This document shows, one piece after another, positions 47,886 to 49,936 of a DNA stretch of 64,000 bases. The stretch is from Escherichia coli. Its GTDB lineage: Bacteria > Pseudomonadota > Gammaproteobacteria > Enterobacterales > Enterobacteriaceae. Position 1 is the first letter of the stretch, and each line of letters starts with the position of its first letter. The notes under the pieces were generated by a model. That model ran no database searches, was not told where the DNA came from, and saw only the letters and a list, made by a program, of their open reading frames with translations. Location: NCBI RefSeq assembly GCF_003018255.1, contig NZ_CP027440.1; one strand, 5' to 3'. The translations under genes and the position numbers were made by a program.

Positions 47886-47979
47886 GTTTCTGAACAACTC
47901 ACGTTGCTGAGCAGAAAAATGCGATTTAACCAAAAAGCCTGCTGTACACTTAAGAAACAAGAAGGTGTAAGGAGGCGTT

Positions 47980-48513
47980 ATGAAAACGCGTATTCATGTT
48001 GTGCAGGGTGATATTACCAAACTGGCCGTTGATGTGATTGTGAATGCGGCTAATCCGTCATTAATGGGAGGCGGCGGCGTCGATGGGGCCATTCATCGCG
48101 CAGCGGGTCCGGCCCTGCTGGATGCCTGTTTAAAAGTCAGGCAGCAGCAGGGCGATTGCCCTACGGGGCATGCCGTTATTACGCTTGCAGGCGATCTTCC
48201 CGCGAAAGCCGTAGTGCACACCGTCGGGCCAGTCTGGCGTGGTGGTGAACAAAACGAAGACCAGCTTTTGCAGGATGCCTATCTCAATAGCCTGCGACTG
48301 GTGGCAGCAAACAGCTATACGTCAGTGGCTTTTCCTGCAATCAGTACTGGAGTTTATGGTTACCCTCGTGCGGCAGCGGCTGAAATCGCAGTAAAAACCG
48401 TTTCAGAATTTATTACCCGTCACGCTTTACCCGAACAGGTATACTTTGTCTGTTATGATGAAGAAAACGCCCACCTCTACGAAAGACTCCTTACTCAACA
48501 AGGAGATGAATGA
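47980..48513 (+). CDS. ymdB: macrodomain O-acetyl-ADP-ribose deacetylase YmdB (177 aa)
   Basis: 177-aa [46 protein letters not shown] (macro domain). Confidence 0.93.
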
Positions 48514-48514
48514 T

Positions 48515-49936
48515 TTGCCCCGGCTGGCGAGTGCGGTGCTGCCACTGTGTTCGCAACATCCCGGTCAGTGTGGCATTTTTCCTCTGGAGAAAAGTCTGGA
48601 TGCGTTTGCCGCCCGGTATCGTCTGGCCGAAATGGCAGAGCATACGCTGGATGTTCAGTATTACATCTGGCAGGACGATATGTCGGGTCGGTTACTCTTT
48701 TCCGCCCTGTTAGCCGCAGCAAAGCGTGGCGTTCGCGTCCGTTTGTTGCTGGACGACAACAATACGCCCGGACTTGACGACATTTTACGCTTGCTTGACA
48801 GTCATCCCCGCATTGAAGTCCGGCTTTTTAATCCTTTCTCGTTTCGCTTGCTACGTCCGCTTGGTTATATCACCGACTTTTCCCGTCTCAATCGCCGTAT
48901 GCACAATAAAAGTTTCACTGTCGATGGCGTGGTGACGCTGGTAGGGGGGCGAAATATTGGTGATGCCTATTTTGGGGCAGGGGAAGAGCCACTTTTTTCG
49001 GATTTAGATGTCATGGCAATAGGACCAGTTGTAGAGGACGTTGCCGATGATTTCGCCCGCTACTGGTATTGCAAATCGGTTTCACCCCTACAGCAGGTGC
49101 TGGATGTCCCGGAAGGTGAAATGGCGGATCGCATCGAGTTACCAGCATCCTGGCACAACGATGCCATGACGCATCGTTATTTACGCAAAATGGAATCCAG
49201 CCCGTTTATAAATCATCTGGTTGATGGAACGTTGCCGCTTATCTGGGCGAAAACACGTTTATTAAGTGATGATCCGGCGAAAGGGGAAGGCAAGGCAAAA
49301 CGGCATTCACTGTTACCGCAGCGCCTGTTCGATATCATGGGCTCACCCAGTGAACGCATCGATATTATCTCTTCCTATTTTGTACCGACACGCGCAGGTG
49401 TGGCGCAACTCTTACGGATGGTGAGAAAAGGGGTAAAGATTGCGATCCTAACCAATTCTCTTGCCGCTAACGATGTTGCTGTCGTCCATGCCGGATACGC
49501 GCGCTGGCGCAAAAAATTGCTCCGCTATGGCGTGGAATTATATGAACTCAAGCCGACGCGTGAACAAAGTAGTACGTTACACGATCGCGGCATAACCGGT
49601 AATTCCGGTGCCAGCTTGCATGCTAAAACCTTTAGCATCGATGGTAAAACGGTGTTTATCGGCTCTTTCAATTTCGATCCGCGTTCAACATTGCTCAATA
49701 CTGAAATGGGCTTCGTGATAGAGAGCGAAACGCTGGCACAGTTAATTGATAAACGCTTTATTCAGAGCCAGTATGATGCGGCCTGGCAGCTCCGTCTGGA
49801 CAGGTGGGGACGGATCAACTGGGTTGATCGTCATGCAAAGAAAGAGATTATTCTCAAAAAAGAACCCGCCACCAGTTTCTGGAAGCGGGTTATGGTCAGA
49901 CTGGCGTCGATATTGCCCGTGGAATGGTTATTATAA
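48515..49936 (+). CDS. clsC: cardiolipin synthase C ClsC/YmdC (473 aa, PLD superfamily)
   Basis: TTG at 48515 one nt after ymdB stop gives 473 aa (MPRLASAVLPL); two HKD motifs (HNKSFTVDG, HAKTFSIDG); alternative ATG at 48506. Confidence 0.85.
   Translation: MPRLASAVLPLCSQHPGQCGIFPLEKSLDAFAARYRLAEMAEHTLDVQYYIWQDDMSGRLLFSALLAAAKRGVRVRLLLDDNNTPGLDDILRLLDSHPRIEVRLFNPFSFRLLRPLGYITDFSRLNRRMHNKSFTVDGVVTLVGGRNIGDAYFGAGEEPLFSDLDVMAIGPVVEDVADDFARYWYCKSVSPLQQVLDVPEGEMADRIELPASWHNDAMTHRYLRKMESSPFINHLVDGTLPLIWAKTRLLSDDPAKGEGKAKRHSLLPQRLFDIMGSPSERIDIISSYFVPTRAGVAQLLRMVRKGVKIAILTNSLAANDVAVVHAGYARWRKKLLRYGVELYELKPTREQSSTLHDRGITGNSGASLHAKTFSIDGKTVFIGSFNFDPRSTLLNTEMGFVIESETLAQLIDKRFIQSQYDAAWQLRLDRWGRINWVDRHAKKEIILKKEPATSFWKRVMVRLASILPVEWLL

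What the first reader, a model, noticed from the sequence alone, without database searches (positions are those of the whole stretch)
48506..48517. ymdB stop and clsC TTG start separated by one nucleotide
The clsC reading frame begins with TTG at 48515, immediately after the ymdB TGA (48511-48513); an in-frame ATG at 48506 inside ymdB is an alternative start. The arrangement implies translational coupling of ymdB and clsC.
Basis: partly seen in the sequence, partly recalled or inferred. Interest (0 to 1): 0.25.

Follow-up and report, generated by a model that had tools for sequence, protein, structure and literature searches.

The report
ymdB–clsC junction: ambiguous clsC start
The stop codon of ymdB and a TTG start for the cardiolipin synthase gene clsC really are one base apart, but this is an ordinary, already-annotated E. 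coli operon junction, and relatives show that the older, more widely conserved clsC start is an ATG about 60 bases upstream inside ymdB.

Summary
The ymdB stop TGA is at 48511-48513, TTG at 48515-48517 and ATG at 48506-48508; both candidate starts are in the clsC frame.

The TTG is the K-12 GenBank/UniProt start (473 aa). RefSeq starts clsC at ATG 48455, 59 nt inside ymdB (493 aa). A 476 aa form from ATG 48506 is also in public databases.

- **For the TTG:** it is the only candidate with a usable Shine-Dalgarno (AAGGAG, 9 nt upstream). That motif is masked by a small hairpin inside ymdB. In Citrobacter the same position is ATG, and in C. werkmanii it is the only possible start.
- **For the internal ATG:** only 11 of 27 species with adjacent ymdB-clsC have a start codon at the TTG position. 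Salmonella and five other genera can only start at the internal ATG. The lowest synonymous variation in ymdB lies around that ATG. Published tetracycline ribosome profiling shows more signal there, though its authors call it inconclusive.

Most likely E. coli keeps both starts, with the TTG coupled to ymdB termination. Either way the clsC initiation signals lie in ymdB DNA, which could explain why clones need ymdB in cis. This is a known locus and a known mechanism, so interest is low to moderate.

The parts
47968..47975 (+). Shine-Dalgarno of ymdB (TAAGGAGG, 4 nt before the ATG)
   Evidence: Best anti-SD duplex is -11.5 to -11.9 kcal/mol. The predicted initiation strength is far higher than for any clsC candidate.
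47980..48513 (+). ymdB CDS (O-acetyl-ADP-ribose deacetylase, macro domain, 177 aa)
   Evidence: ORF list. RefSeq annotation of near-identical records. NCBIfam NF001660 at 376 bits over 1-177/177, and Pfam Macro.
48438..48468 (+). Nucleotide block conserved across genera (GGTATACTTTGTCTGTTATGATGAAGAAAAC) around the internal ATG pair; ymdB codons 154-163
   Evidence: Alignment of 22 genera/species. It is the lowest synonymous-diversity window in the whole of ymdB: 0.39 against 0.47-0.61 elsewhere, with Tyr155 TAC 0.01, Tyr159 TAT 0.07 and Glu162 GAA 0.00. A relic of this block is retained in front of clsC in Phytobacter, where it no longer encodes YmdB.
48455..48460 (+). Internal ATG ATG in the clsC frame, inside ymdB codons Tyr159-Asp160-Glu161. 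ATG 48455 is the RefSeq/PGAP clsC start (493 aa) and ATG 48458 is the TetRP 'ATG -57' site
   Evidence: RefSeq CDS coordinates. TetRP Table S2 row 99. An ATG here is usable in 24 of 27 species and is the only start available in 6. There is no SD at usable spacing.
48487..48505 (+). 6-bp hairpin in which CUCCUU (48487-48492) pairs with the SD AAGGAG (48500-48505), with a 7-nt loop
   Evidence: MFE and centroid structures. Hairpin alone is -5.1 kcal/mol. P(SD unpaired) is 0.02-0.18 in five sequence contexts. Only 2 of 300 synonymous recodings of the upstream ymdB codons mask the SD as well. The pairing is complete only in E. coli and E. fergusonii.
48500..48505 (+). AAGGAG Shine-Dalgarno for the TTG, formed by ymdB codons Gln174-Gly175-Asp176
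   Evidence: CAAGGAGA:anti-SD duplex at -8.5 kcal/mol with spacing 8-9 nt to the TTG. Gly175 uses GGA in E. coli and E. fergusonii but GGC/GGT in E. albertii, Salmonella and Citrobacter.
48506..48508 (+). In-frame ATG (476 aa form, MNDLPRL) overlapping the ymdB stop region by 8 nt
   Evidence: In frame. No SD at 4-10 nt, and the predicted score is the worst of all candidates at +15.4. Present in Escherichia, the ERR11595005 strain and C. tructae. A 476 aa form exists on 72 contigs in public data.
48511..48513 (+). ymdB stop codon TGA
48515..48517 (+). TTG, the K-12 GenBank/UniProt clsC start (473 aa), 1 nt after the ymdB stop
   Evidence: The 473 aa form is CLSC_ECOLI. The same position is TTG in E. 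fergusonii, C. sedlakii, C. amalonaticus and the ERR11595005 strain, and ATG in the C. freundii complex. It is TTA in E. albertii, AAA in Salmonella, and a non-start codon in 14 other species.
48515..49936 (+). clsC CDS in the TTG model. The open frame itself extends upstream to 48395
   Evidence: ORF list. Two PLDc_2 domains. 98-100% identical to RefSeq ClsC.
48527..48554 (+). 12-bp hairpin in clsC codons 5-14, starting 12 nt after the TTG
   Evidence: -12.6 kcal/mol. It accounts for most of the roughly 13 kcal/mol unfolding cost predicted for initiation at the TTG. The z-score of the whole region is not significant (-0.42).

Best explanation
This is the junction of the known ymdA-ymdB-clsC operon, and clsC has two real translation initiation regions, both built from ymdB coding sequence.

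1. **Internal ATG pair (48455/48458).** This is the ancestral site, conserved across Enterobacteriaceae, and lies 57-60 nt inside ymdB. It has no Shine-Dalgarno and gives a 492-493 aa protein with a polar, unconstrained N-terminal tail.
2. **Junction TTG (48515).** This younger site is restricted to the Escherichia-Citrobacter branch and lies one base after the ymdB stop. It is served by an AAGGAG motif made from the last ymdB codons and gives the 473 aa protein.

On its own the TTG site is weak. TTG is a poor start codon, the SD is locked in a 6-bp hairpin with CUCCUU 7 nt upstream, and a 12-bp hairpin follows. Ribosomes finishing the well-translated ymdB would melt the SD hairpin and release within 4 nt of the TTG. 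Initiation there is therefore probably coupled to ymdB translation, by hairpin opening and/or termination-reinitiation.

**Shown:** the anatomy, the distribution across species, the SD energetics, the predicted masking, and the disagreement between annotations.

**Inferred:** that both sites are used in E. coli, that the TTG is coupled, and that this cis arrangement explains the reported need for the ymdB gene for good ClsC production.
For: - **Anatomy:**
- **TTG site:**
  - It is the only candidate with a correctly spaced SD, at -8.5 kcal/mol.
  - It has the best rough thermodynamic score among the clsC candidates, yet is about 10 kcal/mol worse than ymdB's own start.
  - SD masking is stronger than in 298 of 300 synonymous recodings.
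  - The junction position is a start codon in 11 of 27 species. It is the only possible start in C. werkmanii, and junction-region starts (position 0 or up to 18 nt upstream) are the only ones possible in C. braakii and the ERR11595005 strain, where the upstream frame is closed.
  - C. amalonaticus has its own GAGGAG 4 nt before its TTG.
  - SD and TTG are both intact in E. coli and E. fergusonii, and both altered in E. albertii.
- **Internal site:**
  - It is usable in 24 of 27 species and is the only start in 6, including Salmonella.
  - All three closures of the upstream frame fall among the 11 species that have a junction start (hypergeometric p = 0.056).
  - The synonymous-site minimum of ymdB sits on it.
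  - A relic of the block is retained in Phytobacter.
  - ymdB-less relatives carry a 7-16 aa tail before the conserved TRL motif, so a tail is the family norm.
  - TetRP reads are 0/30.1/16.1 at ATG -57 against 0/0/5.7 at the TTG.
  - RefSeq uses it.
- **Coupling is feasible at +1 nt:** a +2 nt spacing keeps 30-95% of reinitiation in three E. coli gene pairs (PMC10666635).
- **Cis dependence:** clones containing ymdB give more ClsC by an unknown mechanism (PMC8027125). The title of Sawasato & Bogdanov 2024 says the ymdB product is not required.
Against: - No experiment that I could read identifies the ClsC N-terminus. The TetRP authors themselves call ymdC inconclusive, because the site lies inside a translated upstream ORF.
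- The internal ATGs have no SD and poor predicted scores (+8 to +13).
- Conservation of the internal ATG is confounded with conservation of the YmdB residues Tyr/Phe-Asp-Glu. The synonymous-site signal is modest (p = 0.038, one-sided, not corrected for phylogeny).
- The peptide encoded in the overlap is unconstrained. For example, Leu/Pro, Thr/Ile and Lys/Arg polymorphisms occur within E. coli, all of them ymdB-synonymous.
- The SD-like motif can arise simply from Gly-Asp/Glu-Glu codons, and it also occurs in genera that have no start downstream of it.
- The hairpin is weak (-5.1 kcal/mol), is complete only in E. coli and E. fergusonii, and the region as a whole folds no better than shuffled sequence.
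- Coupling itself is untested.
Confidence: 0.5

Rival explanations
1. ClsC starts only at TTG 48515 (473 aa), is translated by ribosomes that have just terminated at the ymdB TGA one base upstream, and the upstream in-frame ATGs are silent by-products of YmdB codons.
For: - It is the K-12/UniProt model, and the 53,666 Da mass used by the field matches it.
- It has the only well-spaced SD and the best predicted score among the clsC candidates.
- The orthologous ATG is the only possible start in C. werkmanii.
- The internal ATGs arise automatically from TAT GAT GAA codons.
- The overlap peptide is unconstrained.
Against: - TetRP shows more signal at ATG -57 than at the TTG.
- E. albertii has TTA and a weakened SD.
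- Salmonella and 15 other species have no start codon at this position, so the family's ancestral start is upstream.
- Synonymous constraint and the Phytobacter relic point to function at the internal block.
- The 473 aa form would be the shortest N-terminus in the family.
Confidence: 0.2
2. The RefSeq model. ClsC starts only at the internal ATG (48455 or 48458; 493/492 aa), overlapping ymdB by 56-59 nt, and the TTG and AAGGAG at the junction are incidental consequences of the YmdB C-terminal codons Gln-Gly-Asp-Glu-stop.
For: - RefSeq annotation in all six E. coli records inspected.
- It is the only start available in Salmonella, Lelliottia, Leclercia, Enterobacter ENT03, Superficieibacter and Intestinirhabdus.
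- Synonymous-site minimum in ymdB, TetRP signal and the Phytobacter relic.
- SD-like motifs occur in the YmdB tail of genera that have no junction start.
Against: - There is no SD, and the predicted initiation is poor.
- The site sits in a well-translated ORF, where elongating ribosomes would interfere.
- Three Citrobacter lineages have closed the upstream frame and live on junction-region starts alone, so starts at or just upstream of the junction position do work.
- E. coli and E. fergusonii use the rare Gly codon GGA, which completes the SD, and it co-occurs with the TTG.
Confidence: 0.2
3. ClsC starts at ATG 48506 (476 aa, MNDLPRL), used as a reinitiation site by ribosomes terminating at the TGA 5 nt downstream (an 8-nt overlap).
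For: - ATG is a better start codon than TTG.
- -8 nt overlaps are the third commonest class of unidirectional gene pair in E. coli (PMC10666635).
- The ATG is retained in E. coli, E. fergusonii and E. albertii (where the TTG is lost), and in the ERR11595005 strain.
- 476 aa calls exist on 72 contigs.
Against: - AAGGAG abuts the ATG with 0 nt spacing, so no SD is usable. Its score of +15.4 is the worst of all candidates.
- The ATG is an automatic product of the GAT GAA codons.
- It is absent from C. sedlakii, C. amalonaticus, Salmonella and all other genera.
- TetRP did not pick it.
Confidence: 0.07
4. A prfB-like +1 frameshift at GAA-TGA, with an SD-like AAGGAG 2 nt upstream, fuses YmdB to ClsC.
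For: - The layout (SD-like element, 2 nt, a sense codon, then TGA) superficially resembles the prfB shift site.
- The clsC frame is +1 relative to ymdB.
- Database proteins of 651-653 aa carry both macro and PLD Pfam hits.
Against: - The tRNA-Glu on GAA cannot re-pair on AAU, so there is no slippery codon (read directly from the sequence).
- The 651-653 aa proteins change frame in the middle of the macro domain, after residues ~70-125. They are frameshifted ymdB alleles or assembly errors, not junction fusions.
- The motif is not conserved across genera.
Confidence: 0.01

Closest known systems
E. coli K-12 ymdAB-clsC operon (ClsC/YmdC, b1046; Tan et al. 2012 PNAS; Kim & Kim 2017 FEMS Microbiol Lett; Sawasato & Bogdanov 2024 BBA)
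   Same: It is the same locus. The window is 98% identical to K-12 over ymdB and the clsC 5' end. Five of the six E. coli records inspected carry the identical YmdB protein accession (WP_000857405.1); the divergent strain YZ22PE165 carries a different one. The TTG start is the K-12/UniProt model. The literature reports that clones including ymdB give more ClsC by an unknown mechanism.
   Different: Nothing structural differs. The window strain differs from K-12 in the junction region by ymdB-synonymous or clsC-synonymous changes (ACT/ACC, AGT/AGC). I could not read Tan 2012 or Sawasato & Bogdanov 2024, so I do not know whether they already mapped the start.
Termination-reinitiation (TeRe) coupled gene pairs of E. 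coli, e.g. hyfH-hyfI, ydbH-ynbE, menD-menH (Huber et al. 2019, 2023)
   Same: The genes are co-directional, the SD lies inside the upstream gene, and the stop and start are within the -8..+6 nt class that holds 24% of E. coli unidirectional pairs. A +2 nt spacing still supports reinitiation.
   Different: The tested pairs have a -1 nt overlap and ATG starts. Here the spacing is +1 nt with a TTG, a second in-frame start lies 57-60 nt upstream, and dependence on upstream translation has not been measured.
Structure-mediated translational coupling, where the downstream RBS is masked by pairing with upstream coding sequence and opened by the translating ribosome (classical examples from RNA phage MS2 and several E. 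coli operons; from general knowledge)
   Same: The SD of the TTG is predicted to pair with a complementary CUCCUU in the last codons of ymdB.
   Different: The hairpin is short (6 bp, -5.1 kcal/mol), is complete only in E. coli and E. fergusonii, and is unsupported by covariation or experiment.
Genes with two translation start sites found by tetracycline-inhibited ribosome profiling (Nakahigashi et al. 2016, PMC4909307)
   Same: ymdC is in their list of alternative-start candidates (ATG -57). [quoted passage not shown]
   Different: For ymdC the authors could not decide, because the site lies inside the translated ymdB ORF.

Membership tests
ClsC (PLD-type cardiolipin synthase C of Enterobacteriaceae) | Two PLD/HKD catalytic domains and near-identity to E. 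coli ClsC | tested here: met
   Pfam PLDc_2 matched in two stretches (1.6e-40) plus the PLDc active-site motif. 98-100% identity to RefSeq 'cardiolipin synthase ClsC'.
ClsC (PLD-type cardiolipin synthase C of Enterobacteriaceae) | Uses PE plus PG to make cardiolipin | not testable with these tools
   Biochemical property, taken from the literature.
YmdB (macro-domain O-acetyl-ADP-ribose deacetylase) | Full-length match to the equivalog model above its curated cut-off | tested here: met
   NF001660, 376.1 bits against a cut-off of 271, covering 1-177/177. Pfam Macro 1.5e-45.
Termination-reinitiation coupled gene pair | Same strand, same transcript, with no room for a terminator or promoter between the genes | tested here: met
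   The gap is 1 nt. There is no + strand terminator-like site between the genes and no promoter-like site inside ymdB. The operon is named ymdAB-clsC in the literature (reference title).
Termination-reinitiation coupled gene pair | Stop-to-start distance within about -8 to +6 nt | tested here: met
   +1 nt for the TTG and -8 nt for ATG 48506; class defined. Not met if the real start is the internal ATG (-59 nt).
Termination-reinitiation coupled gene pair | Shine-Dalgarno for the downstream gene inside the upstream gene | tested here: met
   AAGGAG at 48500-48505, -8.5 kcal/mol, spacing 8-9 nt.
Termination-reinitiation coupled gene pair | Downstream translation depends on translation of the upstream gene up to its stop | not testable with these tools
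   This needs premature-stop or start-knockout constructs. The only indirect support is predicted SD masking and the reported cis effect of ymdB.
Long-overlap gene pair with an internal out-of-frame start (RefSeq model, 59-nt overlap) | An in-frame start codon with the frame open through to the conserved protein core, kept across species | tested here: met
   Usable in 24 of 27 species and the only start in 6. All three losses fall in species that have a junction start.
Long-overlap gene pair with an internal out-of-frame start (RefSeq model, 59-nt overlap) | Constraint on the overlap beyond what the upstream protein requires | tested here: inconclusive
   There is a local synonymous-site minimum around the ATG (p = 0.038, no phylogenetic correction), but the overlap peptide itself varies freely.
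Long-overlap gene pair with an internal out-of-frame start (RefSeq model, 59-nt overlap) | Experimental initiation signal at the internal start | tested here: inconclusive
   TetRP reads are 0/30.1/16.1 against 0/0/5.7 at the TTG, and the authors flag this 'not conclusive (5' ORF)'.
prfB-type programmed +1 frameshift site | A shift codon whose P-site tRNA can re-pair in the +1 frame, next to a stop codon | tested here: not met
   GAA followed by TGA; the +1 codon AAU cannot pair with tRNA-Glu (sequence). The database 'fusions' are mid-gene frameshifts.

The most novel reading that the evidence does not exclude
E. coli makes two ClsC isoforms from one mRNA. A 492/493 aa form comes from an SD-less ATG inside ymdB, and a 473 aa form comes from the TTG, which is switched on by ribosomes finishing ymdB. 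E. coli would then be caught midway through an evolutionary migration of the start codon: internal only in Salmonella and Enterobacter, both in Escherichia and some Citrobacter, junction only in C. werkmanii and C. braakii. On this reading, the long-puzzling 'YmdB requirement' for ClsC activity is simply a cis effect, because all clsC initiation signals lie in ymdB DNA.
Probability: 0.35. Interest if true: 0.45.

Novelty: already known. Interest (0 to 1): 0.28.

Why it matters
The junction itself is textbook operon architecture in a fully annotated locus. It matters modestly for two practical reasons.

First, the two main reference annotations disagree on the ClsC N-terminus by 20 residues: K-12 GenBank/UniProt gives 473 aa and RefSeq gives 493 aa. 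Anyone cloning 'clsC alone' from the TTG therefore removes the conserved internal start, the native SD context and any coupling to ymdB.

Second, reviewers of E. coli phospholipid synthesis list the way ymdB boosts ClsC as an open question (PMC8027125). A purely cis, translational explanation is cheap to test, using four point mutations that are synonymous in YmdB.

The comparative series also gives a tidy natural example of start-codon turnover between two sites: internal start only, then both, then junction start only.

Tried and rejected
1. **Internal promoter or short-leader transcript.** I considered whether the conserved TATACT 9 nt before the internal ATG could act as a -10 element. The consensus scan finds no sigma-70-like site inside ymdB and there is no -35 element, so this is not supported.
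2. **YmdB-ClsC fusion by +1 frameshifting.** There is no slippery codon. The 651-653 aa macro+PLD proteins in the databases change frame mid-ymdB. Rejected.
3. **GTG 48536 (+21).** It has a weak SD, is buried in the 12-bp hairpin, and is not conserved. Rejected.
4. **TTG 48446 (-69).** It has a weak AGGU 4-5 nt upstream and a score (+5.3) similar to the junction TTG, but it is lost (TCG) in four Citrobacter (Cu233, C. youngae CCUG 30791, C. freundii, C. braakii), and in strain FP75 the TTG that one search lists at this offset belongs to a different ymdB codon. It cannot be excluded as part of the internal initiation region, so I did not treat it separately.
5. **Significant local RNA structure over the whole junction or the internal site.** The z-scores are -0.42 and +0.23. 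Only the small SD hairpin stands out.
6. **Literature.** Tan 2012 and Sawasato & Bogdanov 2024 are not held. The Ribo-RET preprint does not mention ymdB or clsC and has no supplements held. Searches for clsC with ribosome profiling found nothing relevant.
7. **NCBIfam.** It has no dedicated ClsC model that would show where curators place the N-terminus.
Full report
**What is in the sequence.** The window carries the E. coli csgBAC-ymdA-ymdB-clsC-opgC region. It matches 5,423 of 5,426 complete E. coli genomes and is 99.9% identical to strain 2017.09.02CC.
- ymdB occupies 47980-48513 and ends GGA GAT GAA TGA.
- One base (T, 48514) follows the stop, then TTG CCC CGG CTG.
- The gene identities hold. 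YmdB matches NCBIfam NF001660 over its full length at 376 bits (cut-off 271). The downstream protein has two PLD-like domains.
- The one-base gap is not a separate feature. ymdB is offset +2 from the clsC frame, so the first whole clsC-frame codon after any ymdB stop begins one base later. What is non-trivial is that this codon is an NTG, about 3/64 by chance.

The clsC frame is open back to a TAA at 48392-48394. It contains TTG 48446, ATG 48455, ATG 48458, ATG 48506 and TTG 48515. The reference annotations disagree:
- **TTG 48515 (473 aa):** K-12 GenBank and UniProt use this start. It is CLSC_ECOLI in the databases. Its computed mass of 53,665 Da matches the 53,666 Da quoted in a phospholipid review.
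- **ATG 48455 (493 aa):** RefSeq/PGAP starts clsC here, 59 nt inside ymdB, in all six E. coli records I inspected.
- **ATG 48506 (476 aa):** this form is present on 72 public contigs.

**Experimental evidence I could reach.**
- Tetracycline-inhibited ribosome profiling (Nakahigashi et al. 2016, PMC4909307) lists ymdC with an alternative start 'ATG -57', which is window 48458. Normalised reads were 0/30.1/16.1 there and 0/0/5.7 at the annotated TTG.
- The authors score it 'not conclusive', because the site lies inside the translated upstream ORF.
- The Ribo-RET preprint does not mention the locus.

**E. coli-specific signals favour the TTG.**
- Only the TTG has a Shine-Dalgarno at usable spacing: CAAGGAGA, -8.5 kcal/mol, 8-9 nt upstream.
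- ATG 48506 abuts AAGGAG with zero spacing, and the internal ATGs have nothing better than -3.8 kcal/mol at 10-13 nt.
- A rough RBS-calculator-style score ranks the TTG best among the clsC candidates (+5.1). The others score +5.3 for TTG 48446, +8.3 and +12.8 for the internal ATGs, and +15.4 for ATG 48506.
- All of them are far weaker than ymdB's own start at -4.9.
- Much of the TTG's penalty is unfolding cost. The SD pairs with CUCCUU (48487-48492) in a 6-bp hairpin, and a 12-bp hairpin (48527-48554) begins 12 nt after the TTG.
- The SD is predicted to be paired in every context tried (P unpaired 0.02-0.18). Only 2 of 300 synonymous recodings of the upstream ymdB codons mask it as well.
- This masking is the best sequence-level argument for coupling. 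A ribosome reading the last nine ymdB codons must open this hairpin, and it then terminates 4 nt from the TTG.
- The caveats are that the hairpin is weak (-5.1 kcal/mol) and the region as a whole folds no better than shuffles (z = -0.42 and +0.23).

**Comparative evidence favours the internal ATG as the ancestral, conserved start.** I collected 80 ClsC loci from species-representative genomes, plus Salmonella, E. fergusonii and further Citrobacter.
- ymdB abuts or overlaps clsC in 27 species of Enterobacteriaceae.
- The TTG-equivalent codon is TTG in E. coli, E. fergusonii, C. sedlakii, C. amalonaticus and one unnamed Citrobacter-like strain, and ATG in the C. freundii complex.
- It is TTA in E. 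albertii and AAA in Salmonella (which keeps 'TGA T'). It is a non-start codon in 14 other species.
- Six species have no NTG codon anywhere from -39 to +45 and can only start at the ATG inside ymdB: Salmonella, Intestinirhabdus, Lelliottia, Leclercia, Superficieibacter and Enterobacter ENT03.
- An in-frame ATG at the YmdB Tyr/Phe-Asp-Asp/Glu-Glu codons, with the frame open to the conserved core, exists in 24 of 27 species.
- The three exceptions are C. werkmanii (indel), C. braakii (TAA at -33) and the Citrobacter-like strain (TGA at -24). All three belong to the 11 species that have a junction start (hypergeometric p = 0.056, not corrected for phylogeny).
- Protein-level checks extend the 'no start at the junction' pattern to Cronobacter, Atlantibacter, Pseudenterobacter, Dryocola and Buttiauxella gaviniae.

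**Is the internal ATG more than a by-product of YmdB codons?** The evidence is suggestive rather than strong.
- ymdB third positions are clsC-frame second positions, so dual use should depress synonymous change.
- Across 21 species, synonymous diversity is 0.46 in the overlap against 0.55 elsewhere (one-sided p = 0.038).
- The lowest 15-codon window of the whole gene (0.39) is centred on the ATG. Tyr159 is almost always TAT (this creates the ATG), Glu162 is always GAA and Tyr155 is always TAC.
- These codons form a conserved nucleotide block, GGTATACTTTGTCTGYTATGAYGAnGAAAAY. In contrast, the codons that make AAGGAG vary freely between genera.
- In Phytobacter the intact ymdB ends 181 nt upstream, yet a decayed relic of another ymdB 3' end sits directly in front of clsC. 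It reads IYLSCYDNKNAR and is 32/42 nt identical to the Enterobacter block. It still provides the in-frame ATG, while the sequence after it has diverged completely.
- ClsC relatives without ymdB start 7-16 residues before the conserved TRL motif, each with a good SD. An N-terminal tail is therefore normal for the family, and the 473 aa form would be unusually short.
- Against a protein-level role, the overlap peptide is unconstrained. Within E. coli it shows Leu/Pro, Thr/Ile and Lys/Arg differences, all synonymous in ymdB.

**The junction start is nevertheless real in this branch.**
- C. werkmanii can only use the ATG at the TTG position. There the ymdB stop overlaps it as ATGA.
- C. braakii and the Citrobacter-like strain can only use starts within 18 nt upstream of, or at, the junction position.
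- C. amalonaticus has its own GAGGAG 4 nt before its TTG.
- E. coli and E. fergusonii share TTG plus the rare Gly codon GGA that completes AAGGAG. E. albertii has changed both, to TTA and GGC.
- Within E. coli the 121-nt junction is at least 99% identical to K-12 in 4,918 of 5,423 genomes. In every variant I sampled the TTG, ATG 48506, AAGGAG and the ATG pair are intact.

**Synthesis.** The simplest reading is start-codon turnover between two sites:
- internal only in most Enterobacteriaceae and Salmonella;
- both in Escherichia and several Citrobacter;
- junction only in C. werkmanii, C. braakii and one other strain.

E. coli has both intact, and I cannot tell from sequence how initiation is divided between them. 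I give 0.5 to 'both used, TTG coupled', 0.2 to TTG only, 0.2 to internal ATG only, 0.07 to ATG 48506 and about 0.01 to frameshift fusion, leaving a small remainder unassigned.

Coupling at the TTG is mechanistically reasonable for four reasons:
- ymdB has a strong start;
- the SD lies inside ymdB;
- the SD is masked by ymdB sequence;
- the +1 nt gap falls in the -8..+6 nt class that holds 24% of E. coli unidirectional pairs, and three tested pairs kept 30-95% of reinitiation at +2 nt (PMC10666635).

Coupling has not been demonstrated.

**Link to the literature.**
- Reviews state that clones carrying the adjacent ymdB give more ClsC 'by an unknown mechanism' and list this as an open question (PMC8027125).
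- Other papers attribute the effect to the YmdB protein.
- Whichever start is used, its signals lie in ymdB DNA: the ATG pair, or the SD plus coupling. A cis translational explanation fits, and four YmdB-silent point mutations would test it.

**Rejected ideas.**
- An internal promoter using the conserved TATACT is not supported.
- A prfB-like +1 frameshift lacks a slippery codon.
- The 651-653 aa macro+PLD database proteins are mid-gene frameshifts, not junction fusions.
- GTG 48536 is unconserved and buried in structure.

**Verdict.** This is a known locus and a known kind of junction.

Noticed in passing
Proteins P0001, P0002 (E. coli) and P0010, P0011, P0008 (Salmonella-like); equivalent to window 47980-49936: Public assemblies contain 651-653 aa ORFs with both macro and PLD Pfam hits. 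They are ymdB alleles, or assembly errors, that change frame after ~70-125 residues and then read through in the clsC frame. P0010 stands for 28 member sequences, so a real ymdB frameshift allele may circulate in some Salmonella.
   Followed up: partly
L083 (Salmonella enterica) 726-1265: In Salmonella the clsC reading frame stays open for 441 nt upstream of the junction, across most of ymdB. This is much further than in E. coli (123 nt).
   Followed up: no
L019 (Phytobacter massiliensis) 2405-2460: A decayed relic of a ymdB 3' end (IYLSCYDNKNAR...) lies directly upstream of clsC, although an intact, differently ending ymdB stops 181 nt upstream. This implies a past rearrangement or replacement of ymdB that spared the clsC 5' region.
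   Followed up: partly
L017 (Cedecea), L018 and L021 (Buttiauxella), about 15-19 nt upstream of the E. coli TTG-equivalent position: A second 'stop, one base, start' junction occurs at a different place: TGA C GTG in Cedecea and the Buttiauxella MAG, and TAA T TTG in B. izardii. None has a Shine-Dalgarno. An NTG directly after the ymdB stop thus occurs at two different junction positions; I did not test whether they arose independently.
   Followed up: partly
window 48527-48554: A 12-bp hairpin (-12.6 kcal/mol) lies in clsC codons 5-14, 13 nt after the ymdB stop. The U/C difference between the window and K-12 at 48532 keeps the pair (U-G against C-G). It could limit initiation at the TTG or act as a post-stop structure.
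   Followed up: partly
NZ_CP069990.1 (E. coli FDAARGOS_1304), hit H25: Only the 3' 63% of the query matches in one piece, there are two places in the record, and ymdB is annotated merely as 'macro domain-containing protein'. ymdB appears to be interrupted in this strain.
   Followed up: no
(E. coli genomes summary): Five of the ~5,420 matches to the ymdB-clsC region are on records labelled as plasmids rather than chromosomes.
   Followed up: no
L010 (Intestinirhabdus alba) about 2296-2490: Only YmdB residues 113-177 are matched, and in the frame I extrapolated the reading frame stops early (…LLT*). ymdB may be a pseudogene there, while clsC keeps the internal ATG as its only start.
   Followed up: no
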